Part shown: positions 4,640-53,350 of the stretch, in pieces
How the letters are laid out: each line of letters starts with the position of its first letter
How positions within the stretch are numbered: the first letter of the stretch is position 1
IMG/VR virus record: IMGVR_UViG_3300035698_013589
Span: 52,033 to 116,032 of that record
Source: a virus
Lineage: Duplodnaviria; Heunggongvirae; Uroviricota; Caudoviricetes
Length of the DNA: 64,000 bases
Direction: 5' to 3' (one strand)
Position numbers and translations under genes: made by a program
Notes under the pieces: model-generated
What the model saw: only the letters and a program-made list of their open reading frames with translations
Told to the model about the DNA's origin: nothing
Databases searched by the model: none

Positions 4640-6404
4640 AGGGTCAGTCTATATCCCACAAATGGACAAAGAAGAAGTATTAATATACGACATTGAGACA
4701 GCTGTAGTTGGACCAAAACCTGATGCAACTAAAGATAGACTTAAACTATTTGGGTTCTATTCATACAAGATAGGAAAGTTTGGTATCATTCCATTCACAG
4801 ATAAAGCATCAATTCAGAAGTTAATTGACAAACATAAGTTTATGGTTGGTTTTAACAACGAACAATATGATGACCCAATTCTGAAGAGGGAAGGAATATC
4901 CTTAGAATACAAAAGGATTGTAGACCTAAGAAAAATATTAAAACTTAGAGCAGGTGGAATGATTACTAAGAAAGGAATGCTTGGTAATGTTCTAATGAAA
5001 TATTCTCTGGATTACATTACAAGATTCTTAGATATTGTTGATGAGAACTCAGCTAAAGATGAGATTGATTATAACATATTTAAAAAAGATAGTTGGACTA
5101 AAGAAGAAGTTGCAACTATGAGAAAATATACTCAAAGAGATATTGAAGTAACAAAGAAACTATTTGAATGGGTAGAAGATTATTTTATCAGTTTCAAAGA
5201 TTTTGTTCCAAAGAAAGACGTTGATGGTAAATATTATCTAACAGATACTATTGCTAAGTTTGCTTACAAAGCCATTTGCCATGCGCTTGGTTGGGAGCCT
5301 GTTTATGATAGTGAGGGTTTCCAAAACACTAATCCTGAAGATAGAATCTCTGGTGGTTATGTAGCTTATCCTGCAGGTGAAAAGTTTGAAGGGGACATCT
5401 ATTGTTTAGATTTCAATTGTTTTCCTCCAAATACTAAAATACGAATGGCTGGAAAAGGTGGAGCTGATGGCCACTACCATGATAAAAATATTCAGAATAT
5501 TAAACCTGGCGATACAATAATAAACCAAGATGGTGTGCAGGTAGTTGGTGGTGTGCAGACACAAAATTATACTGGAGATTTGATAGTTATAGAATTAGAA
5601 AATGGTAGACAAATTAAGTGTACGCCAGACCATAAATTCCCAATAATTAGAGATGGGAAAGAGATGGTTGTTGAAGCACAAAACATAAGTGATACAGATG
5701 ATATGTTAACAACTAATTCAAAACATGGTAAACTAAATGGACATCATAAAGGAAAGATTCTAAAGATGTGTGAAGTATGTGGTTCAGAACATTCTGTGTT
5801 CCCATCACATGAACATATTAAAACTTGTTCAACAGAGTGTGCAAATGTATTAAGAGAATTAAATAGTCCAAAAACAAATCTTGGAAAGACTAAATACGAT
5901 ACACCACATCTTATGAGAATGTCTGAAGCGAGAACTGGTGTGCCTAGAACAGATGAACATAAAAATATAATTAGTAATGCTACAAAAGAAGCTATGAAAG
6001 ATGTCAACATGTCTGAAGTGAATAAACAAAGAGATATGTCATTCATGCAAACATCTGAATGGAGATTAAAAGTCGCTCAGTCAAAAATGAATAGTGTGAA
6101 GGCAGGAAAATTTAGATATAAAGATATAAATTTCAGGAGTAATTGGGAAGTTATTGTTGCAAAAAACCTAGACAAGAATAACATAGAGTGGAAATACGAA
6201 CCACAAGTGTTTAAGTTAGATGACGAAACATTCTATTTGCCAGATTTCTATATTCCTAAGTTCGATAAGTGGGTAGAAGTAAAAGGTTATATGTATGACC
6301 ATAGTAGAATAAAAATAGAAAAGTTTATGGAAACACATGAAAATTTTATATTGGTTAATGATTTGAATAGTGTAAAAGACGAGGATGTAAAATGGTTAAG
6401 ATAA
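4626..6404 (+). CDS. polB: Family B DNA polymerase, N-terminal part: exonuclease domain plus motif A half (DFN), fused to intein N-terminal region and endonuclease domain
   Basis: Exo I YDIET, Exo II VGFNNEQYDDPIL, Exo III YTQRDI, then YCLDFN / CFPPNTK (intein block A) and TPDHKF (block B); AGGAG RBS. Confidence 0.85.
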   Translation: MKTNKGSVYIPQMDKEEVLIYDIETAVVGPKPDATKDRLKLFGFYSYKIGKFGIIPFTDKASIQKLIDKHKFMVGFNNEQYDDPILKREGISLEYKRIVDLRKILKLRAGGMITKKGMLGNVLMKYSLDYITRFLDIVDENSAKDEIDYNIFKKDSWTKEEVATMRKYTQRDIEVTKKLFEWVEDYFISFKDFVPKKDVDGKYYLTDTIAKFAYKAICHALGWEPVYDSEGFQNTNPEDRISGGYVAYPAGEKFEGDIYCLDFNCFPPNTKIRMAGKGGADGHYHDKNIQNIKPGDTIINQDGVQVVGGVQTQNYTGDLIVIELENGRQIKCTPDHKFPIIRDGKEMVVEAQNISDTDDMLTTNSKHGKLNGHHKGKILKMCEVCGSEHSVFPSHEHIKTCSTECANVLRELNSPKTNLGKTKYDTPHLMRMSEARTGVPRTDEHKNIISNATKEAMKDVNMSEVNKQRDMSFMQTSEWRLKVAQSKMNSVKAGKFRYKDINFRSNWEVIVAKNLDKNNIEWKYEPQVFKLDDETFYLPDFYIPKFDKWVEVKGYMYDHSRIKIEKFMETHENFILVNDLNSVKDEDVKWLR

Positions 6405-6505
6405 ATAAAATAACACGGGAACCATATAATGGATTAGTGTATGATTTATCTTTAAAGAATGTAGCATCCCCATATTTTTATGCTAATAGAATACTGACAC
6501 ACAAT
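5418..6505 (+). mobile_element. intein in polB motif A (Hint blocks A,B,F,G) carrying a non-LAGLIDADG endonuclease region (CxxC...HxH, two NUMOD3-like repeats, PD-(D/E)xK-like LPDFYIP...WVEVKG)
   Basis: insertion exactly between DFN and SLYP of polymerase motif A; N-terminal Cys, C-terminal HN followed by Ser; length 1088 nt is not a multiple of 3 (frame change near 6392-6404). Confidence 0.75.
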
Positions 6506-7771
6506 AGTCTTTATCCACACATAATGATTCAATGTAATCTTTATTCAAGAAATAAGAAGGTGGCAGATGGATGGCATGGAAGTGACATGTGGAAAGTTGA
6601 AGGGTTCTATAATGATGAAAAACTAAGCCCTGTTTGTAAACTTATGAGAGCATGGTATCATCTAAGATTAAAATATAAAAGAAAATTTGTTACTGGTGAA
6701 GGTAAAGTTGTCAAGATGCTTGATGAAAAGAAAGGAACATCAGCTATGGATTATGTTGGAAAAGAATATCATAGAGTTGTTCAAAATTCAGAAGGGCAGA
6801 TTAAACTTGAGCTTGCAATGATGACTGAAGAGTCAGCAAAGGAATATGTTGAACTTGCAAAAGAAGGTGTGGACAGAAGAGAATACACAATCAAGATTAT
6901 CATTAATACAATTTATGGTTTATTGAATAATGCATACTACAAACTTGTATATGATTTAATGGCTGGTGGAGATTGCACAAGAATAGGAAGACAATGGACT
7001 AAGTATGCTCGTAAGATATTCAAAGAAGCTGGTTATAAAATTGTATATACCGATACAGATTCATGGTATGTTATTGACCATTTGAATGATAAAAAGAAAC
7101 TGCTTGAAGTTAATAAGCAAGTGATTGATAAGATAAAAGCCACTGTTCCGTTTCCGCAATTAACCTTTGATGCAGGTATAGATGATGAGATTAAATACAT
7201 GTTCTTCTTTAAAGGAACAAAGAATGAGGAAAAAGAAACTGATAGTGAGATGGACTCAGAGGATTTCTTGAACAAACCATTAGGACTGATGAAGAAAAAC
7301 TATATCTATGTCACTAAAGAAAATAAGGTTAAGATAAAGAACTTAGGAATCAAGAAGAAAAATATAAGTGCTTTATCAAAAGAAATCTTTTGGAATCATT
7401 TAGTTCCTGTTATTAAATCAGAAGGGCGAGTTAAGTTTAGTGCTGTTGAGATTGAAAACCTTATGCGTAGATTGTTGAAAGATAACATTGAACTATCATA
7501 CATGAGAAAAGAAGTGTCTCCTATATCAGCATATTCTAAATCAATCAATGGCATCCAAGCACAAATATCTAAAGCATATGGACCAGGAATACATTTCCTT
7601 ATACCAAACAAAAGAAACATTGGTGTTGGGAAGAAAGTTAAATATTGTAATGTTGATGAGTTCCAGAAATATAAGATGGAGATTTCTGATATAGATTTCT
7701 CAAACTTCTGGAAAGAACTTAACTATTTTGTCAAAGCAAGGAAACAACCAAACTTATTTGATTGGAATTAA
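6392..7771 (+). CDS. polB: Family B DNA polymerase, C-terminal part: 38-aa intein C-terminal segment (blocks F,G ...ILTHN) followed by SLYPHIM (motif A), KIIINTIYG (motif B), YTDTDS (motif C)
   Basis: starts 13 nt before stop of previous ORF in another frame; GAGGA RBS-like sequence upstream of ATG. Confidence 0.85.
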   Translation: MVKINKITREPYNGLVYDLSLKNVASPYFYANRILTHNSLYPHIMIQCNLYSRNKKVADGWHGSDMWKVEGFYNDEKLSPVCKLMRAWYHLRLKYKRKFVTGEGKVVKMLDEKKGTSAMDYVGKEYHRVVQNSEGQIKLELAMMTEESAKEYVELAKEGVDRREYTIKIIINTIYGLLNNAYYKLVYDLMAGGDCTRIGRQWTKYARKIFKEAGYKIVYTDTDSWYVIDHLNDKKKLLEVNKQVIDKIKATVPFPQLTFDAGIDDEIKYMFFFKGTKNEEKETDSEMDSEDFLNKPLGLMKKNYIYVTKENKVKIKNLGIKKKNISALSKEIFWNHLVPVIKSEGRVKFSAVEIENLMRRLLKDNIELSYMRKEVSPISAYSKSINGIQAQISKAYGPGIHFLIPNKRNIGVGKKVKYCNVDEFQKYKMEISDIDFSNFWKELNYFVKARKQPNLFDWN

Positions 7772-9075: not shown

Positions 9076-9444
9076 ATGAGCAAGGATTCAGGCGTAGATA
9101 TACTTTTAGAAGACTTAGATGAGAATGATATTGGTTCTATTTTAACAGTATACAATGATGTTAATCTTGTTAAGAAAGCAATTGAGGAACAAATCAACAT
9201 GCTTAGAGATAAGTTAAAAGTTCAATTGAAAGAACGAAAATGGGATTCATACATGGATGAGGGTAGTAAAATTTCTGTGTCGATAACCACACAACAACGG
9301 GAAAGTGTAAACAAGAAAGCACTGAAAATGTTATTGAACGATGAGCAATATGCTCAGGTAATAACAAAAACATCCTTTGAAAAGATGTTGATAATTAACC
9401 CAAAAGATAGGGAGAGGTTGAAACAATATGGCAACAAAAAATAA
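9076..9444 (+). CDS. hypothetical protein
   Basis: ORF downstream of promoter copy, GGGTG RBS. Confidence 0.45.
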   Translation: MSKDSGVDILLEDLDENDIGSILTVYNDVNLVKKAIEEQINMLRDKLKVQLKERKWDSYMDEGSKISVSITTQQRESVNKKALKMLLNDEQYAQVITKTSFEKMLIINPKDRERLKQYGNKK

Positions 9445-10402
9445 CTTCTTTTCATCCTTGTTTGGTGGAAAAGAAAAGAAATTACTTAAACAATTAAAAA
9501 AATTAAAGAAAGAGCACGACGCTCTTGATACAAAATTATTAAGTGGGAAAATAACAAAAAAGGAACTCGATAAGTATTATGAGTTAAAGGAGGATATTAC
9601 CAAAATGGCTAAGAAATTTATGTTAAAAGATGGAAAACTTGTTCTAAACACAGAGCAAAACAAAGGTGAAACAATGGACACAAAAATAGATGAAAGTAAA
9701 GTAAGTGCGCCAGCTCCTGTGCCACAACAAGCACCACAAGAGATGCCGCTACCACCAGCACCTGAACCTGTTCAACAACAAATACATGAACCTGTTCAAG
9801 AACCTGCGCCAATGAGAACAAGTCCTGCATATGTAGAAGCACAAATGAGAGCTGATGAAGATGCACAACAGCAAGCTATGATGCAAGCTCAACAACAAGC
9901 TCAAGCACAACAGCAAGCTATGGCTCAAGCACAACAGCAAGCTCAGATGCAAGCACAACAACAAGCTCAGATGCAAGCACAGGCACAACAACAAGCTCAG
10001 ATGCAAGCACAACAGGAAGCTCAGATGCAAGCACAACAACAAGCTCAGATGCAAGCACAACAGCAAGCTCAGATGCAAGCACAACAGGAAGCTCAGTATA
10101 GAGCACAACAAGAACAGGAACAACTTGAACTTCAAGCACAGCAAGAAGCACAAGCAAGAGTTGAACAGAGCAGTCAAATAAAATATGCTACTCAACAACA
10201 AACACCACCACAACAACCTGAAGGAAGAGCTTTAGTATATTTATCTGTTACTGATTTACCAGAACTTAATTTAGGAATAAACAAAGAAGCAATACCTGTT
10301 TTTGTAGATAAAATAAACAAAGCAATGCAGGATGCAACACCATTTCAGTTTGGTCCATACACAGTTAATGGAGCAAAGATATTAATGTACAGATTTGAAT
10401 AG
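9428..10402 (+). CDS. Q/A-rich low-complexity repeat protein
   Basis: tandem ~27-30 nt repeats (caacaagctcagatgcaagcacaa) at ~9890-10090 encode QQQAQMQAQ units. Confidence 0.5.
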   Translation: MATKNNFFSSLFGGKEKKLLKQLKKLKKEHDALDTKLLSGKITKKELDKYYELKEDITKMAKKFMLKDGKLVLNTEQNKGETMDTKIDESKVSAPAPVPQQAPQEMPLPPAPEPVQQQIHEPVQEPAPMRTSPAYVEAQMRADEDAQQQAMMQAQQQAQAQQQAMAQAQQQAQMQAQQQAQMQAQAQQQAQMQAQQEAQMQAQQQAQMQAQQQAQMQAQQEAQYRAQQEQEQLELQAQQEAQARVEQSSQIKYATQQQTPPQQPEGRALVYLSVTDLPELNLGINKEAIPVFVDKINKAMQDATPFQFGPYTVNGAKILMYRFE

Positions 10403-10550
10403 AGATGGAGAGAAGAATGAGCGGGTCACTAAAGGATTTTTTAACAGAAAAGAAACTTGTCGGTAGATGGATGATACTTGCTGCAGCCTTAGTAGGAGGA
10501 TTTGCAGGAGCGATTTTAATGTTTTTAGTGGCTCTGTTAGGTTTGGTATC

Positions 10551-11054
10551 ATGAAGATAAATAGTAAGTTATTGTGGGGCCTTATAATCGCATTTGGTAT
10601 TGCAAACTTACTTGATGTATCTACAGCTATGTTTATATTAGATGGAGAATCAAACCCAATTTATTTATTAACCCAATCTGTAGCAGTGTTGTGGATTATG
10701 AAAATAGGATTCATGATGTTGATTGGATGGATATATTTTAAAAACGAATATCCATCAAGATTTTGGTTATACTCATTCATATACATTTTAACAATTGGTA
10801 CATTTATTGTGAGTTTAGGTGTTTACAGTAACGTGTTAGGTATATTAAACCCAGCAATAGTTGAATCAGCAGCAGGAATATCATCAGCAGAAAAAGTAAA
10901 TTATTATACATATCTGATTAGTATTCTGATGGTCATACCATACATAATTTCAATGGTGGCATTCAAAATATATGATGTTGTTGAATCAAAAATCAAATAC
11001 AAATCACAGGTGGATGAGGAACTATGGGACTTAATGTCACAGGAAAAGAAGTAG
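10551..11054 (+). CDS. polytopic membrane protein
   Basis: 4-5 hydrophobic helices; start overlaps (ATGA) a 45-aa TM mini-ORF at 10417-10554. Confidence 0.45.
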   Translation: MKINSKLLWGLIIAFGIANLLDVSTAMFILDGESNPIYLLTQSVAVLWIMKIGFMMLIGWIYFKNEYPSRFWLYSFIYILTIGTFIVSLGVYSNVLGILNPAIVESAAGISSAEKVNYYTYLISILMVIPYIISMVAFKIYDVVESKIKYKSQVDEELWDLMSQEKK

Positions 11055-11788: not shown

Positions 11789-12865
11789 TTGGAAAAGACA
11801 GAGGTAACTGGTAATCAAATGAAACTTGGTGTTATTATTCTTTTATTATTGTTTCTTGCTAGCTGTACATATGTTGTTGATATACAAGTCTCAGACCAGG
11901 TTATGGATAATGTTGATACTTCGATAGAACAAGTAGAAGAGGAACCACAATATATAGTTAAACTTCTTCCAGGAGATACCATAACAAAAGAACTAACTTT
12001 CAAAGTTTATAACGATAAAGAATACACAGTCACATATGATTTGCATGAAAACTATTTAACATACTATGATTCATTACAACCTAATCTTGAAGCACCATTA
12101 GAAGATTTCTATCAACCATTCTTTGAAGAACAATATGGACAGGATATATTTGATGATATTTTATCCCAAGTAAAAGACATGACATCTGATGACAGAGAAA
12201 CAATTATTTATTTAATGCATCTTGTCGGCGGCATAGAATATAAAGAAGACTCAGAGTTTTATTATCCTTATACAATTTTGAATAATCAATTTGGAATGTG
12301 CACAGACAAATCATTTCTTATGGTAGAGTTCCTAAGACGTATGGGATATGGTGTAGCAATGTTAGAATTTTTAGATAACAATCACGTCGCTGTTGGTATC
12401 AAATGTGATTACAAACAATACGATGATTATTGTTTCATTGATACAACTTACGGATACAGAATAATTACAGACAACAAAGTAACATTCAAAAACAAAACTC
12501 CTTTATCTGAAGACGTTGATATTCTCTTTCTCTTTGATGGAAAAGAATATGATGCATCTTTAGATGTTAAAGAGTCAAAGGCTCTTCAATCCAACATATC
12601 ACGTTACTATGATATTTATGATGAGGCTTCAGGATACACTGAGTTCTTTGATGCAGTCAAAGACACAGGGTGTTTAGATGGTCGTGTGCTTGACCCAGTG
12701 CTAATGCCTGGTAGCATTATCATAATGGAGCTCAATGATATGAGCCCTTCATGCCGTGATATTATAATCAGACACAACGACAGAGTTGATGATTATAACA
12801 CTCTTATCGACGAGGGTGAGGCTATTGAGTCGTTGCTTGCTCGTTACAGTGGCTACAACGGATGA
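11789..12865 (+). CDS. transglutaminase-like cysteine protease lipoprotein
   Basis: lipobox LLFLASC; GMCTDKSFLMVEFLRRMGYGV (Cys motif), NNHVAVGIKCD (His) and downstream Asp fit transglutaminase-like core. Confidence 0.5.
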   Translation: MEKTEVTGNQMKLGVIILLLLFLASCTYVVDIQVSDQVMDNVDTSIEQVEEEPQYIVKLLPGDTITKELTFKVYNDKEYTVTYDLHENYLTYYDSLQPNLEAPLEDFYQPFFEEQYGQDIFDDILSQVKDMTSDDRETIIYLMHLVGGIEYKEDSEFYYPYTILNNQFGMCTDKSFLMVEFLRRMGYGVAMLEFLDNNHVAVGIKCDYKQYDDYCFIDTTYGYRIITDNKVTFKNKTPLSEDVDILFLFDGKEYDASLDVKESKALQSNISRYYDIYDEASGYTEFFDAVKDTGCLDGRVLDPVLMPGSIIIMELNDMSPSCRDIIIRHNDRVDDYNTLIDEGEAIESLLARYSGYNG

Positions 12866-13449
12866 GGCTGATGACCCTGAGTATACTCTAGTATATATTT
12901 GAAAAAAGAAAGAAAACCACAATACAAAAGAAATATATATATAAACGAGGTTCACTTTCCTCATCATAACAAGAGTACCTTACCATGCAGCGAAGTCGGC
13001 ATGGTTAGTATAGTAGGTGGAAATTTAATTTTCATAAGGCATACAAAACTGTGGATTTATGTGGTTTCACATATTAAGCATTGTATAACCTTGATACCAA
13101 AATTAACTTTTTGACGAAAAAATTTGAGCTAACCGAAGCCAAATAATTATTTCCCACCATTCTCAATAGTTTTCAATCCATCAGGATTTTCTCCAGGGAA
13201 AAAAACTTTTTTTTCTAAATAAAGGCCCTTTTCAAAAGACTCATGGTAATCTAATCCTCACTGTTTTTTGGGGGGTACGGTAGGCCCTTTCTGTGTTACT
13301 TGATTCAACTTAAATTTTTAATTTTGAAATCTGCAGCAGCACTTTCCTGGATAATGTATATACAATAAAACAATAGTTATAGAATATAACGTATAGTATA
13401 TATTTATTATTGTGTTACTTATCTTGGGCTGATTTGTGGCTGTGTTACC

Positions 13450-13492
13450 TGTGTTACCGCAGTAACACAAGTTACCTGCAAAAGCAGGTAAC
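13450..13492. repeat. twin perfect palindromes TGTGTTAC-cgca-GTAACACA and GTTACCTGC-aaaa-GCAGGTAAC
   Basis: read directly from sequence; share GTAACAC core with the cassette hairpins. Confidence 0.85.
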
Positions 13493-13499
13493 ACAGGGT

Positions 13500-13790
13500 G
13501 AACTTTGAAATTTGAAACTTCGTATTCAAATACAATATTGAATTTGGACTTTAAATTTAGAATTGATTTTTGGGGTTGAATTTTCAATAAAAGAATTGAA
13601 TTTTGAAAGATTGAATATTCAAAATTAGCTTCAATTTTGAATTTTAAAAAATTGGCTTTTGAAAATTGAATTTTTTTAGCTTTAAATTTTGAAATTGAAA
13701 ACCTTTTCAAAATTGAATCAGATTTCAATTTTAAAGGGGTTTAAATGGCTCAAAATTGAATCTTTTTTAATTTCTGATATTTGATATATC
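13500..13790. repeat. degenerate iteron field (TTGAATTTTGAAA / CAAAATTGAAT units, >15 copies, both orientations)
   Basis: visible tandem/inverted AT-rich repeats. Confidence 0.6.
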
Positions 13791-13839
13791 AAAATTTAAT
13801 CATGTAAGATTTAACATAAAAAGAGGAGTTAAAAACCAA

Positions 13840-14100
13840 AGTATCAAAGTAACACACTTGAAATGATGATACTTTGATACTTTGATATTTTTTACTACTT
13901 CTAAGTGTAGCTAAAATATTAAATAAACCACTCACTTTTTATATATTTGAAAGTGGGGTTTTATCGTGGTGAAATGGCAAAAATTAACAGCGAATTTTTT
14001 TTAAATCCTATTAGAAAACTATTAAAAAAATAGACTAATTTTAACTAAAAAATTTAGTATCATTTAGTATCATTTTTGGCGAAATGATACTAAACCTTTA
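13840..14100. repeat. short direct repeats (gatactttgata x2; tttagtatcat x2 plus inverted atgatactaaa)
   Basis: read from sequence. Confidence 0.5.
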
Positions 14101-14116
14101 TAAAGGGCTTTTATAA

Positions 14117-14238
14117 GTGTGTTACTTTTTTCTGACTTTTGAATTTTGAACATTAAAACGAAACATTTATATAGTAGTTAGTATATCCTAATTAATATAA
14201 AAGGTTATCATTAGCCATAAATTAATGATGGGGCAAAA
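14117..14238 (+). promoter_or_regulatory. leader module copy 1 (GTGTTACTTTT half-site, BRE/TATA 14166-14173, IR, conserved 5'UTR)
   Basis: near-identical to six downstream copies. Confidence 0.6.
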
Positions 14239-14550
14239 ATGGAAAAACAGAACAAATTTAGTTTATATATTGGTTTATTAAAATCAGACATGGAAACGGC
14301 TTTAAATTCTGAAAGTGTTTTAAATGTTGTATCAGACAATTTTTTAAAATTGGGAATCATGGGTTTTAATTCTGAAAATATAAAAGGTTTTTGGAACGGC
14401 AAACCTGAAGGGGCTTTAAAAATTTCTTTTATTAATACTTTTGATATTCATTTTAAAGATTTTTTAAAAGTGGTTGAATCTTTAAAAATTCAATTAGAGC
14501 AAGAATCTATTTTAATAGAGCAAGAGCAAGTTTTATATAATTTTGCTTAA
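14239..14550 (+). CDS. cassette gene 1, hypothetical small protein
   Basis: starts at ATGGAAA of conserved leader; ends at oligo-T. Confidence 0.6.
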   Translation: MEKQNKFSLYIGLLKSDMETALNSESVLNVVSDNFLKLGIMGFNSENIKGFWNGKPEGALKISFINTFDIHFKDFLKVVESLKIQLEQESILIEQEQVLYNFA

Positions 14551-14685
14551 ATTTTTTTTTCTCATGAAGCGTGTTACTTTCCTTGAATCCATGCAACAAA
14601 GTAACACAGATATATTTATATAGTAGTTAGTATATCCTAATTACATAAGGTTATCATTAACCATAAAATAATGATGGGGCAAAAA
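14551..14685 (+). promoter_or_regulatory. leader module copy 2: oligo-T, hairpin GTGTTACTTT...AAAGTAACAC, BRE/TATA, IR ATCATTAA-n7-TTAATGAT, GGGG RBS
   Basis: sequence identity with other copies. Confidence 0.7.
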
Positions 14686-15072
14686 ATGGAAACAATAAAA
14701 GAAAATAGCGAATATAAAATATTTGCAGTTAGTAGCTTTATGGCACATACAACAGCACAAATTTTTAAAGTTGTGGGTTTTCAGGAAAGTAAACCAATAG
14801 TAGTTTTTAAAAATCATAAAGGAAATTATGAAAGAAAAAAAAGACTTTTGGACATGGACAAAAAAGATATTATTATAATTCCTTTAAATGATTGTATTTT
14901 GAAAGCAGACAGCGAAACAGGGAATTTTTTTGGTAATGCGTGTTTTAATTTCTTAAATTCTGAATCACAAATTATAGAGCAATTAAAACTTAATTTAATT
15001 CAGGGTTTTGAATCAAGATGGAAATTTAACAGCGTGGACGAAAACCGAAATTATACAGAACTTTCTATTTAA
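14686..15072 (+). CDS. cassette gene 2, hypothetical protein (true start ATGGAAAC; track start MMGQK is leader read-through)
   Basis: conserved leader analysis; in copy 1 and copy 3 the upstream ATGATGGGG is out of frame or hits a stop. Confidence 0.6.
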   Translation: METIKENSEYKIFAVSSFMAHTTAQIFKVVGFQESKPIVVFKNHKGNYERKKRLLDMDKKDIIIIPLNDCILKADSETGNFFGNACFNFLNSESQIIEQLKLNLIQGFESRWKFNSVDENRNYTELSI

Positions 15073-15208
15073 TTTTTTTTTTTCGTTTCAGGCGTGTTAC
15101 TTCTCCTGAATCAAGCAAAAAGTAACACGGATAAGTTTATATAGTAGTTAGTATATCCTAATTATAAGAAAAGGTTATCATTAACCATAAATTAATGATG
15201 GGGTAAAA
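15073..15208 (+). promoter_or_regulatory. leader module copy 3
   Basis: hairpin GTGTTACTT...AAAGTAACAC 15094-15128, TATA 15136-15143. Confidence 0.7.
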
Positions 15209-15460
15209 ATGGAAATATGCGAAACGGCAACCGATAAAAAAGGCAGTTATTCAGAATTTGACAATAATGAAGAAAGGGTTTATATTTTTAATAAAAGTGA
15301 TGAATGTATAAACTATTTTGAAGCTTACGACCTTGAAGAATTGGCTTTAAATAATCACAAAAAAAGCGAACACTTATATTAATTTTTTTTTCTTGAATCA
15401 TGTGTTACTTTGTAAACGAATCAGGATAAAAGTAACACGGAAACATTTATATAGTAGTTA
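15209..15460 (+). CDS. cassette gene 3 (not in supplied track); ORF reads through oligo-T and next leader, possibly decayed
   Basis: ATGGAAATATGC start after leader (leader ATGATGGGG hits TAA here); manual translation gives 83 codons ending TAG at 15458. Confidence 0.3.
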
Positions 15461-15516
15461 GTATATCCTAATTACATAAGGTTATCATTAACCATAAATT
15501 AATGATGGGGCAGAAC
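15383..15516 (+). promoter_or_regulatory. leader module copy 4
   Basis: hairpin 15401-15437, TATA ~15445. Confidence 0.7.
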
Positions 15517-15888
15517 ATGAAAAAATCAGAACTTAAAACAACAACTTTAAAAAAGTTAATGACAGCACACAGAATAAACCAACAATGGCACAATAAAAAT
15601 AAATCAGGTGGCAATTTTGGTTTAAATTTCTATTTTGGCGAAACTTTTGAAAGGGGAAGAGATAAAAGTTTAAGTGGCTATTATAATGTAGATGGCGATT
15701 TATACAGCTTATCTTATGGTAATGCTTACGGCGTGGGGCAGAAAATACCAAAAGAAATTCTAAAAGATATTAACCTATTAGCTAAATATTTATTACACTT
15801 AAATAATAATGGTGATTGGTTGAAATTTCTCCAAGATAATAATTTATTTGAAGAGTATCAAGAAAGACAGGGGCTTAAAAATGAATAA
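15517..15888 (+). CDS. cassette gene 4, hypothetical protein
   Basis: start ATGAAAAAATCA following conserved GGGGCAGAAC. Confidence 0.55.
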   Translation: MKKSELKTTTLKKLMTAHRINQQWHNKNKSGGNFGLNFYFGETFERGRDKSLSGYYNVDGDLYSLSYGNAYGVGQKIPKEILKDINLLAKYLLHLNNNGDWLKFLQDNNLFEEYQERQGLKNE

Positions 15889-15902
15889 AAGAAATTTAGA
15901 AT

Positions 15903-16214
15903 ATGAGGAGAAATTTAAAAAATATCTTTTTAAATTTGATTTGCAGACACATAAAGAAATCTGTAAAAATATCAATGTTAGACATAATCAGGGTGGTAAA
16001 ATTGATTAGTAAACAATATATCAAAGAATTAGAATTTAAAGACATTTTTGAATTTTATAATTATGTTGTGGAATCAAAAATAAATGGCAATTACAGACAG
16101 ACAAAAGACTTTATTAACAAAATGAATCAAGAACAAAAACGGCAGTTTTTAGGGTTTTTAGTTTGTGAGGGGCATAGCGAACACATAGCAGAATTTAACA
16201 AAATGTTAATTTAG
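15903..16214 (+). CDS. hypothetical protein
   Basis: ORF in track, no own leader. Confidence 0.35.
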   Translation: MRRNLKNIFLNLICRHIKKSVKISMLDIIRVVKLISKQYIKELEFKDIFEFYNYVVESKINGNYRQTKDFINKMNQEQKRQFLGFLVCEGHSEHIAEFNKMLI

Positions 16215-16222
16215 GGGGCAAA

Positions 16223-16498
16223 ATGACAGATAAAAAAGAAGAGCCAAAACCTGAATATATCACAATTGTTGATATTAGAAAAAGCAATTTAACCAATAAA
16301 ATCTTTATTGTATCACAAGATTATATAATGCAAACTGATTTTTGTAATGGTGGATTTTATCAGGAACAAAGCACAGAATTAGAATTTGTAAACAGGAAAG
16401 ACCTTTTATTTACTATTCAGAAAAAAAAGGAACTTTCAAACAACACTATAAAAGAAGTGGGGCAGTTAGAAAAACTTTTAACAGGGGGCAAAAAATGA
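16223..16498 (+). CDS. hypothetical protein
   Basis: GGGGGCAAAATG RBS/start identical in style to leader RBS. Confidence 0.5.
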   Translation: MTDKKEEPKPEYITIVDIRKSNLTNKIFIVSQDYIMQTDFCNGGFYQEQSTELEFVNRKDLLFTIQKKKELSNNTIKEVGQLEKLLTGGKK

Positions 16499-16668
16499 AA
16501 ACATTTAGAGTAGAAATTTTTGAATATGCAACAGGAAAAACAGAAGCCGTTATTGGAACAGGATTAAACGAAGATAGGGCAGAAAAAAGAGCCATGACAG
16601 GTTTAAGCCGTTGTAATTCAGATTATGGAACAAGAAGCATAGACGAAAAAACAGGCGAAGTTTTGTAA
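16495..16668 (+). CDS. small hypothetical protein (57 aa, not in track)
   Basis: ACAGGGGGCAAAAAATG RBS/start; ATGA overlap with previous stop; ends at oligo-T. Confidence 0.4.
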   Translation: MKTFRVEIFEYATGKTEAVIGTGLNEDRAEKRAMTGLSRCNSDYGTRSIDEKTGEVL

Positions 16669-16802
16669 TTTTTTTTCTCAATAATGTGTTACTTTTTTTG
16701 TGAATCAGGATAAAAGTAACACGGAAACATTTATATATTAGTTAGTATATCCTAATTATAAGAAATGGTTATCATTAACCACAAATAATGATGGGGCATA
16801 AA
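16669..16802 (+). promoter_or_regulatory. leader module copy 5
   Basis: hairpin 16686-16722, TATA 16731-16738. Confidence 0.7.
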
Positions 16803-17180
16803 ATGGAAACTAAAAAGTTAATAGTAGGGCTTAATAAGTTGTTTAAGCATAAAGTAGATGATGGTGAAGAGATACCACAAAAAGAATTAAAGGGCTATTT
16901 AGAGCAGTCTAATGTTATTATGGTAATACCAAAAATTAGAGAACTAAAAAATTATTTAGTTGAAAATTTTGATGTTTCGGAATCAAAAATTCCTGAATTA
17001 AATTATAGTTCTGAAAATAGTGGAACTTCTAAATATTCATGTGATTTTATGAAAATGATTTTGGAACTATTAAAACACACAGAATTAGAAAGTTTTAAAC
17101 TTTCAGTTGCAAAAGATTACCCAATGACAATAGAAACTAAAGAGTATAAAGTTATTATTGCACCAAGAGTAGATAATTAA
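16803..17180 (+). CDS. cassette gene 5, hypothetical protein
   Basis: starts ATGGAAACT after leader. Confidence 0.6.
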   Translation: METKKLIVGLNKLFKHKVDDGEEIPQKELKGYLEQSNVIMVIPKIRELKNYLVENFDVSESKIPELNYSSENSGTSKYSCDFMKMILELLKHTELESFKLSVAKDYPMTIETKEYKVIIAPRVDN

Positions 17181-17314
17181 TTAATTTTTTTTCTCAACAA
17201 TGTGTTACTTTTCTTGAATCAGGATAAAAGTAACACGGAAACATTTATATAGTAGTTAGTATATCCTAATTACATAAGGTTATCATTAACCATAAATTAA
17301 TGATGGGGCAAAAA
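17181..17314 (+). promoter_or_regulatory. leader module copy 6
   Basis: hairpin 17202-17236. Confidence 0.7.
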
Positions 17315-17992
17315 ATGGAAACAATAAATGTTTATGAAAACGGCGTATTAATTGAATATGCAGAATGGGAAAAATTAGAGGAATCAGAACAAACCAATTT
17401 CTTAACTACTGATGACTTTGCAGATTGTGATTTTTTAAAAATTAAGGGCGAAATTGCAGTAAATTTTATTAATCATGATGACAAAATATTTTATATAATC
17501 TTTCCTGAATTTGAAGAGCATGAGGACATTATTAAATTTATTCTATTAAGATTTTTTTCAGATGATTTTAAGAAATCATTTACTGAATTGGATACATGGC
17601 ATACAGACCAAAAAGAAAAACAACAATATAAAGCTATATTAGAGACCAATATAGTCTTATTTTATAGGGGTGGCGTGGGTTATTCTTATGGGGTTCATAG
17701 ATTAGAGCCATTAAAATTAAATGAAGCTATTGGCTATTTAAACGGCTTTTGTGGGTATATTGATGTTGAGAATGATGAAGATTATAAAGAATCTGAAATT
17801 ATTGAGACAGCAAACAAAAAACTTTTTTCTGATTTTGAGTTAGATTATACATATATAGGGCATGAGACTATTAATAAATGCAAAAATTGTAATAGTTTTT
17901 TGCATAAAGAAATCCATGAGACAAAAGATAAATACCCTTTTGTTTGCTTAAATTGTGATGAAAATATGTTTGAATTTGAGGTTGAAAAATGA
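17315..17992 (+). CDS. cassette gene 6, hypothetical protein with C-terminal zinc ribbon (CKNC...CLNC)
   Basis: starts ATGGAAACA after leader. Confidence 0.6.
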   Translation: METINVYENGVLIEYAEWEKLEESEQTNFLTTDDFADCDFLKIKGEIAVNFINHDDKIFYIIFPEFEEHEDIIKFILLRFFSDDFKKSFTELDTWHTDQKEKQQYKAILETNIVLFYRGGVGYSYGVHRLEPLKLNEAIGYLNGFCGYIDVENDEDYKESEIIETANKKLFSDFELDYTYIGHETINKCKNCNSFLHKEIHETKDKYPFVCLNCDENMFEFEVEK

Positions 17993-18108
17993 AAATTAAA
18001 ACAAAATGTAAAAGTTGTGAAAGTGGTTTTTCAAAAGAAAAATTTTTATTCAATTGTTGTCCTATTTGTAAAGGAAAAAATTTAATAGAGGTTGAAAATG
18101 AAAACTGA
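17989..18108 (+). CDS. 39-aa zinc-ribbon mini-protein (CKSC...CPIC)
   Basis: ATGA overlap with upstream stop; four Cys in two CxxC pairs. Confidence 0.35.
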   Translation: MKIKTKCKSCESGFSKEKFLFNCCPICKGKNLIEVENEN

Positions 18109-18448
18109 ACAAATGCAAAACTTATTAATTGGGGCTTTTGAGGGTGGTTCTAATTATTGGTATCAAATAAAAGAATTTATCAACAGAAAACCAAAACAGG
18201 AAACTCCTGAATATTTGCCGTCCTATATAACTACTCCTTTTAGTAAAGATGGGGCTTTAATAATTTCAGATATTGAGGGAGATGAAGAGGACAAAACTTT
18301 AAATTTGAAAGCGTTAAAATCAGGGGCAAAAATCATGCATGAAAAATATCCTAAACATTATGCAGATGTTTTAAATGAAGATGATGATTGTATAACAGCA
18401 GATGTATATTTACAATGTTGTCTTTTTGGAGAAATTATTTTTGGTTAA
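18098..18448 (+). CDS. hypothetical protein (track start 18092 is a TTG; ATG at 18098 preferred)
   Basis: ORF ends at oligo-T before leader copy 7. Confidence 0.5.
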   Translation: MKTEQMQNLLIGAFEGGSNYWYQIKEFINRKPKQETPEYLPSYITTPFSKDGALIISDIEGDEEDKTLNLKALKSGAKIMHEKYPKHYADVLNEDDDCITADVYLQCCLFGEIIFG

Positions 18449-18540
18449 TTTTTTTTTCTTTAATCATGTGTTACTTTTCTTTGAATCAGGATAAAAAAGT
18501 AACACGGAAACATTTATATATTAGTTAGTATATCCTAATT
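18449..18540 (+). promoter_or_regulatory. leader module copy 7 (hairpin 18468-18505, TATA 18513-18520) followed by a second tandem promoter copy (TATA 18588-18595)
   Basis: sequence identity. Confidence 0.65.
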
Positions 18541-18671
18541 ATATGAATGGGATAACAAATAAAAAAATGGGATACACAAACGAAACATTTATATATTAGT
18601 TAGTATATCCTAATTACAACAAAGAAAAAAGTGTTTTTGGACACTCAAAAAATCCAAAGGTGGAAAATAAA

Positions 18672-19265
18672 ATGCGAAAAGAAATCATTGAAAAAACAAT
18701 TAAAAAGTTTGAAGAATTTTCAACAGAAGAGCAAGAAGAAATCATTGAAAATTACAGAGATATTAATACTGATTTCCAAGATTGGAACGATTATATATTA
18801 TCTGATTTTGTTGAATCAGTAAAAAAACAAACAGATTTAGAAATAGAGCCAAAAGATATTTTATGGGCAGTTGGTGATAGAAATGCTAAATTTGGGGTTT
18901 ATTCTAAAGTTATTATAAATCAATTAATCAGTAGATTTGAAGATAAAGGAGTTTACGATATTAATACTCCTGAAAAATTGGGTAGTTTTCTAAATCATTT
19001 AGGTGGTGGTATGTGTAACAAAAATAGCACAGAAACAGGGTTAGCAGACGTTTATTTTGAAGAGGATACAGATAAACAGGCAGACCAAAACAAAGCCGTT
19101 AAAGAGCAAATAAACGATATTATAGACACTATTATAGAGTTATGTAGTAAATATCACACACAGAACGAAGAAGCTTTTAATCATTCCATGAGTGATGAAG
19201 CCGTTAAGGATACTCTTATTGCTAATGAATATGAGTTTGAAGTAGAAACAAAGAGGATTTACTAA
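18672..19265 (+). CDS. acidic protein, tentatively ArdA-like antirestriction/DNA-mimic
   Basis: very acidic; DFQDWNDYILSDFVE resembles the FQDWEG region of ArdA N-domain; preceded by promoter, IR AGTGTttttggACACT and GGTGG RBS; track start at 18660 is GTG. Confidence 0.35.
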   Translation: MRKEIIEKTIKKFEEFSTEEQEEIIENYRDINTDFQDWNDYILSDFVESVKKQTDLEIEPKDILWAVGDRNAKFGVYSKVIINQLISRFEDKGVYDINTPEKLGSFLNHLGGGMCNKNSTETGLADVYFEEDTDKQADQNKAVKEQINDIIDTIIELCSKYHTQNEEAFNHSMSDEAVKDTLIANEYEFEVETKRIY

Positions 19266-23924: not shown

Positions 23925-24022
23925 TATAACGAAACATTTATATATTAGTTAGTATATCCTAATTACATCAAAGAAAAAAAGTGTTATTGAACACTAAAAA
24001 AATATCAATGGGGAAAAATAAA
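23925..24022 (+). promoter_or_regulatory. promoter (TATA 23937-23944) plus IR AGTGTT-attg-AACACT (23980-23995) leader
   Basis: same architecture as leader before 18672. Confidence 0.6.
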
Positions 24023-38679: not shown

Positions 38680-38738
38680 GTTTTATATAGTAACTATATT
38701 GTATTAATCAGTATATTAGAGATGGTGGTTTTTACAAT
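38680..38738 (+). promoter_or_regulatory. BRE/TATA promoter copy (cgaaagTTTTATATAgtaactatatt)
   Basis: consensus match, 77-nt intergenic gap. Confidence 0.55.
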
Positions 38739-43362: not shown

Positions 43363-43459
43363 ATATATGTTGTATTATACTAATTAATACAACACATATA
43401 TTAAATTACATATAAGAAAATAACGGTCAAATATGACAAGATATACGAGGTAGAACAAA
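43350..43459 (+). promoter_or_regulatory. promoter copy with 10-bp IR TGTTGTATTA-n7-TAATACAACA at start-site region
   Basis: consensus cgaaaCATTTAAATATA at 43351-43367; IR 43368-43394. Confidence 0.5.
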
Positions 43460-53205: not shown

Positions 53206-53211
53206 ATTAAA

Positions 53212-53340: not shown

Positions 53341-53350
53341 GGGGATATAT

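What the first reader, a model, noticed from the sequence alone, without database searches (positions are those of the whole stretch)
14651..14690. Inverted repeat ATCATTAA-n7-TTAATGAT overlapping the RBS in every leader copy
Within the 5' UTR of each cassette gene the 3' arm of an 8-bp inverted repeat runs straight into the GGGG ribosome-binding site (TTAATGATGGGGCAAAAAATG). As RNA the hairpin would occlude the RBS. As DNA it is an operator-like palindrome between transcription start and start codon. Either way, the whole cassette family could be regulated coordinately at translation or by a repressor.

It also explains the ORF-track artefact MMGQK/MMGHK at the N-termini. The leader ATGATGGGG is in frame in some copies but out of frame (14239) or stopped by TAA (15209) in others. 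So the real start is the downstream ATGGAAA.
Basis: partly seen in the sequence, partly recalled or inferred. Interest (0 to 1): 0.55.

Follow-up and report, generated by a model that had tools for sequence, protein, structure and literature searches.

The report
Two-hairpin leader in viral gene cassettes
The inverted repeat is real and lies in the transcribed leader of six tandem small-gene cassettes of what looks like an uncultivated archaeal virus, but it is a weak helix that competes with a better-conserved hairpin and covers only the edge of the ribosome-binding site, so it is a modest regulatory detail.

Summary
Partly confirmed. Six tandem cassettes (14.1-18.5 kb) share a 31-nt leader block, GGTTATCATTAACCATAAATTAATGATGGGG. 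The repeat is a perfect 8 bp in three copies and 7 bp in the other three, including the cited copy.

Context changes the reading. The upstream "promoter" looks like an archaeal BRE/TATA box. A T8-T11 run follows each cassette's last stop codon, as in archaeal U-tract terminators. The replication proteins look archaeal. The predicted transcription start puts the repeat in a 41-45 nt 5' UTR.

The block can form two mutually exclusive RNA helices:
- Helix A: GGUUA-UCAU-UAACC, at the 5' end.

Relative L012 keeps B with one compensatory change (C-G to U-A), but B is weak there. More distant L014 keeps only A, also with a compensatory change. In the window, A and B are about equally stable (about -5 kcal/mol). 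GGGG stays 50-75% unpaired in the 37 C model.

My best reading is an RNA-level leader structure that tunes mRNA stability or translation. It is not a strong RBS occluder or a DNA operator. A better operator candidate is the palindrome between TATA and start site.

Closest known: halovirus HF2 intergenic promoter repeats and T4-type PeSL cassettes.

The parts
14653..14675 (+). The inverted repeat at the cited coordinates (helix B), cassette 2: ATCATTA-ACCATAAAA-TAATGAT. It has 7 bp; the 8th pair is A.A.
14207..14229 (+). Helix B, cassette 1. It has 7 bp plus a G.T (G.U in RNA) closing pair.
15177..15199 (+). Helix B, cassette 3. Perfect 8 bp, 7-nt loop.
15484..15506 (+). Helix B, cassette 4. 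Perfect 8 bp, 7-nt loop.
16771..16792 (+). Helix B, cassette 5. It has 7 bp and an 8-nt loop (one base shorter, C in the loop).
17282..17304 (+). Helix B, cassette 6. Perfect 8 bp, 7-nt loop.
14649..14679 (+). Conserved 31-nt leader block GGTTA...GGGG of cassette 2. The other copies are at 14203-14233, 15173-15203, 15480-15510, 16767-16796 and 17278-17308. Each holds helix A, helix B and the GGGG Shine-Dalgarno sequence.
   Evidence: Three of 31 columns vary, against 7 of 13 in the flanks.
14649..14662 (+). Helix A, the 5'-proximal hairpin GGUUA-UCAU-UAACC. It excludes helix B. The other copies are at 14203-14216, 15173-15186, 15480-15493, 16767-16780 and 17278-17291.
   Evidence: Kept in L012 and in L014, where a U-A to C-G compensatory change occurs.
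14676..14679 (+). GGGG Shine-Dalgarno-like site, 5-6 nt before the real ATG. The first two G's can pair with UU at the base of helix B.
   Evidence: SD-type motifs lie upstream of 66 of 98 starts, against 14 of 98 control windows; GGGG is used 14 times.
14686..15072 (+). Cassette 2 gene from its real start codon; the ORF list started it at 14671. The other real starts are 14239, 15209, 15517, 16803 and 17315.
14615..14643 (+). Promoter core TTTATATA-GTAGTTAGTATATCCTAATTA. It consists of a TATA box, an imperfect palindrome AGTTAGTAT|ATCCTAATT, and an initiator region. There are nine identical or near-identical copies: 14166, 14615, 15136, 15446, 16730, 17244, 18513, 18588 and 23937. In most copies a BRE-like CGAAAC/GGAAAC lies upstream.
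   Evidence: The archaeal reading rests.
14552..14560 (+). T9 run starting 2 nt after the stop codon of cassette 1. I read it as a U-tract terminator. The others are at 15073-15083, 15383-15391, 16669-16676, 17185-17192 and 18449-18457.
14571..14607 (+). Inverted repeat GTGTTACTT-N19-AAGTAACAC between the T-run and the BRE/TATA. It recurs before cassettes 2-6 and before 18513. Its function is unknown. It is probably a DNA-level element, because it lies after the terminator.

Best explanation
The repeat is one of two mutually exclusive RNA helices in a conserved 31-nt block of the 5' untranslated leader. Six tandem promoter-leader cassettes share this block. They belong to an uncultivated virus that, judged by its transcription signals, most likely infects an archaeon.

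**Cassette layout.** Each cassette reads: U-tract terminator of the previous unit; GTGTTACTT...AAGTAACAC repeat; BRE/TATA promoter with a palindrome before the start site; 41-45 nt leader; GGGG Shine-Dalgarno; ATG; one to four small genes, nearly all with no family match and the one searched having no homologue.

**The two helices.** Transcription is predicted to start 2-7 nt before GGUUA.
- Helix A (GGUUA-UCAU-UAACC) forms first, at the extreme 5' end. It is the element kept across related viruses.
It reuses the loop and 3' arm of A. In this virus it is about as stable as A.

**Inferred mechanism.** The leader sets mRNA stability and ribosome access for the six cassettes together.
- Helix A protects the 5' end and leaves the A-rich spacer and SD open.
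- Helix B gives a weak, easily melted partial masking of the SD. Temperature or a bound factor could shift the balance.

**Shown versus inferred.** Shown: the anatomy, the conservation pattern, the pairing potential, and the few compensatory changes. Inferred: the transcription start, the archaeal host, and any effect on stability or translation.
For: **The repeat is transcribed**
- TTTATATA lies 71 nt before the ATG of cassette 2. It is preceded by CGAAAC/GGAAAC.
- In validated archaeal-virus promoter repeats the TATA box begins at -26 (PMC8707807).
- A relative has the same BRE/TATA 24 nt before an ATG, which implies a leaderless mRNA (L016).

**Archaeal context**
- T8-T11 runs start 1-5 nt after the last stop codon of each cassette. 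U-tract terminators are described in PMC8716108.
- The clamp loader matches archaeal RFC small subunit best (2e-43) and T4 gp44 less well (4e-29).
- PolB hits only Thermococcales PolB in the PDB and nothing in 50,697 phage records.
- PTH2 is present.
- The 21-mer TATA-plus-palindrome recurs in 16 GTDB contigs, 12 of them archaeal MAGs.

**Constraint on the block**
- Three of 31 columns vary, against 7 of 13 in the flanks (p = 0.003). The variable ones are the loop and the closing pair.

**Helix B**
- 91% of cells are paired over 10 leaders from 3 genomes. Three pairs have changes on both sides. The covariation score is 0.209, against 0.119 +/- 0.027 in shuffles (0 of 500 reach it).
- C-G becomes U-A in all three L012 copies.
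- The U.G pairs at the SD become U-A where the SD is AAGGUGA.
- Arm spacing varies (7, 8 or 9 nt). A loop tolerates that; a dimeric DNA site would not.

**Helix A**
- 88% of cells are paired, the G-C pairs are invariant, and L014 has a U-A to C-G change.
- It is the minimum-free-energy structure in L012 and L014.

**A second leader class behaves the same way**
- The leaders at 18630-18645 and 23980-23995 and their L012 counterparts carry a 6-bp tetraloop hairpin that is 100% paired, with one G-C to A-U compensatory change.
Against: - The folds are thermodynamically marginal. Whole-leader z-scores are -0.03 to -1.2 and helix B is -4.6 to -5.7 kcal/mol.
- Independent evolutionary events are few, about two for B and one for A. 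The copies within a genome evolve in concert, so the shuffle control overstates the support.
- Relative to the window, L012 also carries two changes that break B's inner pairs. B is only about -2 kcal/mol there and absent in L014. B may therefore be lineage-specific or incidental.
- Between orthologous cassettes the leader block is no better conserved (77%) than the coding sequence (77%). The promoter core is 93% (and sequence).
- GGGG stays 50-75% unpaired in the 37 C model (33-68% at 10-20 C), so any translational effect would be small.
- The transcription start, the host and the expression timing are all inferred. No RNA data were available.
Confidence: 0.5

Rival explanations
1. Helix B is incidental. 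The elements under selection are the 5' hairpin A, the A-rich spacer and the SD. The reader's repeat is a chance complementarity between A's U-rich loop and arm and the A/U-rich spacer. It was copied to all six cassettes by recombination or concerted evolution of a mobile regulatory cassette.
For: - 8-bp AT-rich inverted repeats are common: 41 in the window and about 14 in shuffles.
- The copies are homogenised within each genome but differ between genomes.
- B is only about -2 kcal/mol in L012 and absent in L014, whereas A is kept.
- Two of the five window-to-L012 differences in the block break B.
- I estimate the chance of one doubly-hit, complementary pair among five changes at roughly 0.05-0.07. 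This is my own figure, not a tool result.
Against: - The 3' arm AATGAT is invariant in all six copies, although the spacer just after GGGG and the linker before GGTTA vary freely.
- The C-G to U-A double change and the U.G to U-A change at the SD both keep pairing.
Confidence: 0.25
2. The repeat is a DNA operator. A dimeric repressor encoded by the virus or the host binds the palindrome between the transcription start and the start codon. It blocks the six cassettes together.
For: - The arms are palindromic and invariant, and the centre is variable.
- A symmetric change on both arms in L012 is also what a co-evolving half-site would show.
- Archaeal viruses are known to carry small repressors. 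Short ORFs were not fully screened.
Against: - The invariant 7-bp arms are separated by 8 or 9 bp within one genome.
- The centre-to-centre distance of about 15 bp puts the half-sites on opposite faces of the helix.
- Pairs at the SD end and in L014 are T.G, which is not symmetric in DNA.
- L014 has no palindrome here.
- No HTH, RHH or sigma-type Pfam hit at E<=1e-4 appeared among 109 ORFs.
- The half-site is not enriched elsewhere in the window.
- Three copies of the same promoter lack the repeat.
- A better-placed operator candidate exists: the palindrome between TATA and the start site, present in all nine promoter copies.
Confidence: 0.08
3. The block is a sequence-specific RNA target. A translational repressor or an endoribonuclease would recognise it, in the way T4 RegA binds early RBS regions and T4 RegB cuts within early SD sequences. 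That would shut the cassettes off together later in infection.
For: - Conservation covers the whole block, including single-stranded parts (GG, CCA, GGGG), not just the arms.
- Only this subset of promoters carries the block, so it defines a sub-regulon.
- The cassette genes are small and, apart from one (18092-18448, phrog_2355), match no Pfam or PHROG family. This is typical of early takeover genes.
Against: - No RegA- or RegB-like or other RNA-binding regulator was detected.
- The block differs at 7 of 31 positions between orthologous cassettes of two related viruses. That is loose for a sequence-specific site.
- The idea rests on analogy with bacterial phages, recalled from my own knowledge.
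Confidence: 0.1

Closest known systems
Class I intergenic repeats of halovirus HF2 (Haloferacalesvirus), experimentally shown to be promoters (PMC8707807)
   Same: - Multiple near-identical intergenic repeats in the early/middle region of a tailed archaeal virus.
- Each repeat holds BRE, TATA, a conserved motif running up to the start site, and an initiator.
- They are proposed to hold binding sites for viral regulators.
- They are conserved in position in related viruses.
   Different: - The HF2 repeats are 56-58 bp and end at about the transcription start. No conserved structured leader or SD block is described for them.
- The sequences are unrelated and HF2 is GC-rich.
- Here the repeat unit also includes a terminator T-run, an upstream inverted repeat and a 31-nt leader block.
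PeSL (promoter-early stem-loop) cassettes of T4-type phages (PMC2839356, PMC4122927)
   Same: - Composite repeated units: stem-loop, then promoter, then SD and start codon.
- The units flank small genes without known relatives in a hyperplastic region.
- Their repetition is thought to drive modular shuffling. That would explain unrelated genes behind identical leaders.
   Different: - PeSLs use sigma-70 type -35/-10 promoters in bacterial myoviruses. Their stem-loop is the terminator of the upstream gene.
- Here the promoter is BRE/TATA-like and termination is by a bare T-run.
- The upstream repeat has a 17-22 nt loop and lies after the T-run.
- There is an extra structured leader.
SD-sequestering leader hairpins and RNA thermometers (for example FourU, where U's pair with AGGA through A-U and G.U pairs). 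Recalled from my own knowledge.
   Same: - An AU-rich, low-stability helix.
- Its 3' strand runs into the SD through U.G pairs.
- In L014 a UUUU stretch could pair with AGGA.
   Different: - Only two of four SD bases are covered.
- A competing hairpin exists.
- No temperature data are available.
- There is no match to any Rfam family.
5'-terminal stabilising stem-loops of bacterial and phage mRNAs (ompA leader, T7 and SP82 early transcripts). Recalled from my own knowledge.
   Same: Helix A begins an estimated 0-7 nt from the predicted 5' end. An unstructured A-rich spacer and the SD follow it.
   Different: - A protective role against archaeal 5'-3' exonucleases is only inferred.
- In the second leader class the hairpin starts about 13 nt from the predicted 5' end.

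Membership tests
PeSL cassettes (T4-type phages) | Stem-loop immediately upstream of the promoter | tested here: met
   GTGTTACTT-N17-22-AAGTAACAC ends 7 nt before the TATA box in cassettes 2-6 and at 18468-18505. The loop is unusually large, and the T-run lies before the repeat, not after it.
PeSL cassettes (T4-type phages) | Sigma-70 type early promoter (-35, N17, -10) | tested here: not met
   The consensus scan does not pick the repeated motif as a good sigma-70 promoter. The motif reads as BRE/TATA, and the -35-like part varies between copies.
PeSL cassettes (T4-type phages) | SD and start codon at the 3' end of the repeat; flanks genes without relatives in a plastic region | tested here: met
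   GGGG-N5/6-ATG closes the repeat. The cassette proteins have no Pfam hit. Only one of them has a significant PHROG hit (18092-18448, phrog_2355, 1.2e-09). The one cassette protein searched had no homologue in 5.8 billion proteins.
PeSL cassettes (T4-type phages) | Host genome is a T4-like myovirus of bacteria | tested here: not met
   PolB has no tblastn hit in 50,697 phage records. The clamp loader is closer to archaeal RFC than to gp44.
Archaeal-virus promoter repeats (HF2 class I type) | BRE plus TATA box about 26 nt upstream of the start site, with a conserved motif up to the initiator | tested here: inconclusive
   The sequence fits: CGAAAC-A-TTTATATA followed by a 21-nt conserved block ending AATTA-CA. 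A leaderless example in relative L016 has 24 nt between the TATA box and the ATG. The start site was not measured.
Archaeal-virus promoter repeats (HF2 class I type) | Promoter activity shown experimentally | not testable with these tools
   This needs a reporter assay or transcript 5'-end mapping.
SD-sequestering hairpin / RNA thermometer | SD (and/or AUG) base-paired in the dominant structure at the non-permissive condition | tested here: not met
   GGGG is 50-75% unpaired at 37 C and still 33-68% unpaired at 10-20 C in the ensemble model. Only G1-G2 pair.
SD-sequestering hairpin / RNA thermometer | Pairing maintained by covariation | tested here: inconclusive
   91% of cells are paired and three pairs have double changes. 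There are only about two independent events, and B is weak or absent in the relatives.
Any curated RNA family (Rfam 15) | Covariance-model match | tested here: not met
   There is no relevant match in 12860-18700 even at E<=1. At gathering scores the whole window yields only a tRNA.
Palindromic repressor operator | Fixed half-site spacing and strict Watson-Crick symmetry | tested here: not met
   The spacing between the invariant arms is 8 or 9 bp within the window. The outer and L014 pairs are T.G.
Palindromic repressor operator | A cognate DNA-binding protein | tested here: inconclusive
   No HTH or RHH Pfam hit at 1e-4 among 109 window ORFs. ORFs below 60 aa and the rest of the genome were not searched.

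The most novel reading that the evidence does not exclude
The 31-nt block is a true two-state RNA switch. Helix A would be the 'on' state with a protected 5' end. Helix B would be the SD-masked state. Temperature or a viral or host factor would flip it, giving coordinated translational control of six early genes. That would be the first 5'-UTR conformational switch described for an archaeal virus. It would sit inside a mobile promoter-leader-terminator cassette, the archaeal counterpart of the T4 PeSLs.
Probability: 0.15. Interest if true: 0.6.

Novelty: new variant of a known kind. Interest (0 to 1): 0.35.

Why it matters
The repeat by itself matters little. It is a weak AU-rich helix at the edge of a ribosome-binding site, a kind of feature known from many mRNAs.

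The context is more interesting:
- The window appears to come from a large, AT-rich, uncultivated virus with archaeal-type promoters and terminators.
- Its early region is built from repeated regulatory cassettes.
- Post-transcriptional control through leader structure is poorly documented in archaea and essentially unexplored in their viruses.
- The cassette offers a compact element for testing it. Mutations can separate the two helices cleanly:
  - UCAU and AAUGAU affect only B.
  - GG/CC affect only A.

The cassettes also suggest that recombination at repeated promoter-leader units, proposed for T4-type phages, operates in archaeal viruses too.

Tried and rejected
**Searches for the same virus or close relatives by DNA**
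- megablast and blastn against phage genomes found nothing.
- Leader and promoter patterns in IMG/VR gave only chance hits or none.
- The promoter 20-mer in JGI metagenomes gave one chance hit, next to a CRISPR-like repeat array.

**Homologues of the cassette proteins, to reach other leaders**
- The 225-aa cassette protein has no homologue.
- Exact look-ups gave only two short, identical contigs, or nothing.
- The protein downstream of the cassettes (18660-19265) has no IMG/VR relative.
- A GTDB scan with the 10467 family found nothing.

**Relatives that stop short**
- Contigs reached through the 10467 homologues and the clamp loader mostly end just before the cassette region (L014-L021, L040). 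Assemblies probably break at the repeats. The 127-kb contig L040 stops about 2 kb short.

**More distant relatives**
- L007/L023 and L008 share the TATA motif and T-run/repeat architecture but have unrelated leaders.

**Ideas considered and dropped**
- A sigma-70 promoter reading.
- An AR9-like or T4-late-like promoter. These were leads from memory, superseded by the BRE/TATA reading.
- A box C/K-turn (UGAUG). The motif is Watson-Crick paired in helix B and lost in L012.
- A pseudoknot between GG and the loop CC. It is sterically implausible.
- A conserved hairpin inside the promoter core. The pairing register differs between promoter classes.
- Shared half-sites with the 13-bp inverted repeat at 14055-14093. 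The half-site is not enriched.
- The archaeal MAG loci that carry the 21-mer share no proteins with the window, so they do not identify the host.
Full report
**1. What is in the sequence**

Between 14.1 and 18.5 kb the window holds six tandem units with the same regulatory region in front of unrelated small genes. The alignment of the six units (A3) shows four zones:
- a promoter-like core, TTTATATA[G/T]TAGTTAGTATATCCTAATTA, with 28 of 29 positions invariant;
- a 5-8 nt linker that varies in sequence and length;
- a 31-nt leader block, GGTTATCATTAACCATAAATTAATGATGGGG;
- a variable 5-6 nt spacer, then ATG.

- The pattern search finds five copies with at most two mismatches, against 0.36 expected. 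A sixth copy at 16771 has one base fewer in the centre.
- The repeat is a perfect 8 bp in three copies. It is 7 bp in the other three, including the copy at the cited coordinates (14653-14675, inner pair A.A).
- A single AT-rich 8-bp repeat is unremarkable. The window has 41, and shuffles have about 14. The six copies share ancestry.
- The conservation pattern is what counts. Three of 31 block columns vary, against 7 of 13 flanking leader columns (Fisher p = 0.003). The three are one loop base and both sides of the closing pair.

**2. Start codons**

- GGGG sits 5-6 nt before a conserved ATG(G/A)AA in all six copies.
- The upstream ATGATG belongs to the 3' arm of the repeat. It is out of frame at 14239 and terminated by TAA at 15209.
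- In relative L012 one copy has no upstream ATG at all.
- The orthologous first-cassette proteins (window 14239-14550 and L012 12436-12747) align from residue 1 of the downstream start at 75% identity.
- SD-type motifs precede 66 of 98 ATG starts, against 14 of 98 control windows. GGGG is used 14 times.

**3. What kind of genome this is**

Nearly all genes are on the + strand, and G+C is about 32%. Identifiable genes:
- an RFC-like clamp loader;
- a family B polymerase split by an intein/HNH-like insert;
- a CCA-adding enzyme, Ro60, a helicase, and PTH2.

PolB has no tblastn hit in 50,697 phage records. In the PDB it hits only Thermococcales PolB, weakly. The clamp loader matches archaeal RFC small subunits (2e-43) better than T4 gp44 (4e-29).

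The repeated 'promoter' reads as an archaeal BRE/TATA element.
- CGAAAC or GGAAAC lies one base upstream of TTTA[T/A]ATA at 13 sites.
- From memory, it is nearly the same as the Pyrococcus gdh promoter.
- T8-T11 runs begin 1-5 nt after the last stop codon of each cassette, and after two other genes, with no preceding hairpin. Archaeal termination relies on U-tracts (PMC8716108).
- A relative (L016) has the same BRE/TATA with 24 nt between the TATA box and an ATG, which is the geometry of a leaderless archaeal mRNA.
- The 21-mer TTTAWATAKTAGTTAGTATAT occurs in 16 GTDB contigs. Twelve are archaeal MAGs, and it typically lies just upstream of small genes. Those loci share no proteins with the window.

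I therefore read the window as part of an archaeal virus, with about 75% confidence. This remains an inference. The group is large and uncultivated: 5,884 clamp-loader relatives reach E<=1e-20, with contigs up to 127 kb.

**4. Where the repeat sits in the transcript**

In the validated archaeal-virus promoter repeats of halovirus HF2 the TATA box begins at -26 (PMC8707807). In L016 there are 24 nt between the TATA box and the ATG.
- Applied here, cassette 2 starts at about 14641-14647, in AATTA-CA.
- That gives a leader of about 41-45 nt.
- The whole 31-nt block is then RNA, beginning 2-7 nt from the 5' end.

**5. Two competing helices**

Folding shows two mutually exclusive structures.
- Helix A is GGUUA-UCAU-UAACC: 5 bp with a tetraloop, at the very 5' end.
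It is up to 10 bp with a 7-nt loop. It uses A's loop and 3' arm as its 5' strand.
- In the window the two are about equally stable: A about -4.8, B -4.6 to -5.7 kcal/mol at 37 C.
- Whole-leader folds are not better than shuffles (z -0.03 to -1.2).
- GGGG remains 50-75% unpaired at 37 C, and 33-68% at 10-20 C. The last two G's, the spacer and the AUG are mostly open.
- 'Occludes the RBS' is therefore too strong.

**6. Comparative evidence**

Most searches for relatives of the leader failed (see 'tried and rejected'). The membrane-protein-like gene at 10467-11054 has 20 homologues. One of them led to L012, a 24.5-kb ENA contig.

L012 is syntenic with the window. It has the same T-run, GTGTTACTT repeat and promoter core. 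It carries three leaders of the same type: GGTTATTATT[T/G/A]ACC(T)TAAAAAAATAAT followed by GGGG or AAGGTGA. The more distant L014 has one leader: AAGGTC-ATTTTC-GACCTT-AAAAAAAGGAGAC.

Results on the 10-sequence alignment A5:
- Helix B is 91% paired. C-G is replaced by U-A in all three L012 copies. One A-U to U-A flip occurs. U.G changes to U-A at the SD end where the SD is AAGGUGA. The covariation score is 0.209, against 0.119 +/- 0.027 in shuffles, and 0 of 500 shuffles reach it.
- Helix A is 88% paired. The G-C pairs are invariant. L014 has a U-A to C-G change, and both relatives have extra outer A-U pairs.

Caveats:
- Copies within a genome are homogenised, so B rests on about two independent events and A on one.
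- L012 also carries two changes that break B's inner pairs.
- B is worth only about -2 kcal/mol in L012 and cannot form in L014. A is the minimum-energy fold in both.
- Between the orthologous first cassettes the block is 77% identical, the same as the coding sequence (77%; third positions 64%). The promoter core is 93% (and direct reading).

Helix A is therefore the conserved element. Helix B is at best a lineage-specific addition.

**7. A general habit of this virus group**

The same promoter core also drives leaders of a second type, at 18588 and 23937.
- These have a 6-bp tetraloop hairpin (AGUGUU-N4-AACACU; 18630-18645 and 23980-23995), followed by an A-run and the SD.
- With the two L012 counterparts, every pair is kept. 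There is one G-C to A-U compensatory change and a U.G/U-A alternation, while the loops differ.
- The Ro60 leader has a hairpin that presents GGAGG in its loop (58075-58092).

Small leader hairpins thus recur in these transcripts. That favours an RNA-level reading of helix A and makes it the counterpart of these hairpins.

**8. RNA or DNA?**

A palindromic operator would also show invariant arms, a variable centre and symmetric changes. Several points count against it:
- The spacing of the invariant arms is 8 or 9 bp within one genome.
- Several maintained pairs are wobbles.
- L014 has no palindrome here.
- The half-site is not enriched elsewhere.
- No DNA-binding regulator was found among 109 ORFs.
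- Three promoters of the same class lack the repeat.

If the cassettes are repressed together at the DNA level, a better candidate exists. It is the imperfect palindrome AGTTAGTAT|ATCCTAATT between the TATA box and the start site. It is 8 of 9 symmetric in L012, is present in all nine promoter copies, and sits where, from memory, archaeal repressors usually act.

**9. Most likely mechanism**

The block is a structured leader shared by a sub-regulon of six early cassettes.
- Helix A forms first. It probably protects the 5' end and keeps the SD accessible.
- Helix B offers a weak, meltable partial masking of the SD. It could tune translation downward, perhaps depending on temperature or a factor.
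- The anatomy, the conservation and the pairing potential are shown. The function is inferred. Confidence is 0.5.

Rivals:
- B is incidental (0.25).
- A protein-recognised RNA site in the manner of T4 RegA/RegB (0.10).
- A DNA operator (0.08).

**10. Comparison with known systems, and novelty**

The unit as a whole works like two known systems: the HF2 class I intergenic repeats, which are validated promoters in an archaeal virus, and the PeSL cassettes of T4-type phages.
- It is not a PeSL member, because the sigma-70 promoter and T4-like genome criteria are not met.
- Membership in the HF2-type class cannot be settled without transcript mapping.
- The leader matches no Rfam family.

I rate it a new variant of a known kind. 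The repeat itself is of modest interest. The archaeal-virus regulatory cassette around it is the more notable observation.

Noticed in passing
window 14155-14194, 14604-14643, 15125-15164, 15435-15474, 16719-16758, 17233-17272, 18502-18541, 18577-18616, 23926-23965, 38671-38720, 43347-43396, 52846-52895, 58034-58083: Thirteen copies of a BRE/TATA-like promoter, (A)ACGAAAC-A-TTTA[T/A]ATA. Nine of them share an identical 29-nt core that contains an imperfect palindrome, AGTTAGTAT|ATCCTAATT, between the TATA box and the predicted start site. The 21-mer TTTAWATAKTAGTTAGTATAT recurs in 16 GTDB contigs. Twelve are archaeal MAGs (Methanosarcinales, Woese-, Nano- and Micrarchaeota), where it typically lies just upstream of small genes, several with N-termini that look RHH/wHTH/zinc-finger-like. 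These loci share no proteins with the window.
   Followed up: partly
window 14552-14560, 15073-15083, 15383-15391, 16669-16676, 17185-17192, 18449-18457, 53582-53589, 59692-59700: T8-T11 runs start 1-5 nt after stop codons with no preceding hairpin. They look like archaeal U-tract terminators rather than bacterial intrinsic terminators.
   Followed up: partly
window 14571-14607, 15094-15128, 15402-15438, 16686-16722, 17202-17236, 18468-18505; also 13293, 13412, 13440-13497, 13847, 14119: An inverted repeat, GTGTTACTT-N17-22-AAGTAACAC, lies between each T-run and the next BRE/TATA. Of the 25 GTGTTAC/GTAACAC motifs in the window, 20 lie between 13.3 and 18.5 kb. One group forms a nested set of inverted repeats at 13440-13497. 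The motif is conserved in L012 and L014. Its function is unknown; it may be a DNA-level binding site.
   Followed up: partly
window 12870-14150: A 1.3-kb stretch with no convincing gene lies ahead of the cassettes. It contains many TTGAATTTTGAAA-type iterons (13500-13760), a 13-bp perfect inverted repeat TTTAGTATCATTT-ttggcg-AAATGATACTAAA (14062-14093), and a 12-bp repeat AGTATCAAAGTA...TACTTTGATACT (13841-13882). Equivalent repeat-rich regions precede the cassettes in L012 (10930-12360) and L014 (10400-12650). It may be a replication origin or genome terminus. The 136-aa minus-strand ORF at 13318-13728 inside it is probably spurious.
   Followed up: no
window 58096-59691 and 59700-60270: A Ro60/TROVE gene is followed by a weak tRNA-Thr call (60109-60179, 30 bits against a gathering score of 29). 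That call overlaps a partial YrlA (Y RNA-like) match at 60146-60209 (35.7 bits, E 5e-6, below gathering). Three related 36-nt modules lie at 59787, 59860 and 60021. Together these look like a Ro60 plus Y-RNA-like module carried by a virus. The Ro60 start is probably the ATG at 58096, not the TTG at 58003. Its SD, GGAGG, sits in the loop of the hairpin UAUACA/UGUAUA (58075-58092).
   Followed up: partly
window 52846-53350: A promoter copy is followed by about 450 nt with no convincing ORF. The stretch is relatively G+C-rich and begins CACAGGCTACCCATCTAGCCTCACCTGATGGGAG. It may be a non-coding RNA. No Rfam match reached the gathering score.
   Followed up: no
window 4626-7771: The family B DNA polymerase is split into two ORFs. 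The first (4626-6404) carries an intein-splicing and HNH/endonuclease-like insert. Relatives have it either split (L017), fused with an intein (L016, 895 aa), or uninterrupted (L012, 1065 aa).
   Followed up: partly
window 18630-18645 and 23980-23995: A second leader class sits behind the same promoter core. It has a 6-bp tetraloop hairpin, AGUGUU-N4-AACACU, followed by an A-run and the SD. The hairpin is conserved in L012 with one G-C to A-U compensatory change.
   Followed up: yes
window 18513-18541 and 18588-18616: Two copies of the promoter core lie 75 nt apart. The first has no gene behind it. L012 has the same arrangement at 15064/15149.
   Followed up: no
window 9836-10140: A tandem 24-nt (18-30 nt) repeat encodes a Q/A/M-rich low-complexity segment of the 324-aa protein at 9428-10402. 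Relative L008 has a similar Q-rich repeat at 17121-17300.
   Followed up: no
L016 5312-5470: A relative carries a BRE/TATA promoter with 24 nt between the TATA box and the ATG of a small RHH-like gene, which implies a leaderless mRNA. The gene lies next to an IS605 OrfB/TnpB-like gene inserted beside the polymerase.
   Followed up: no
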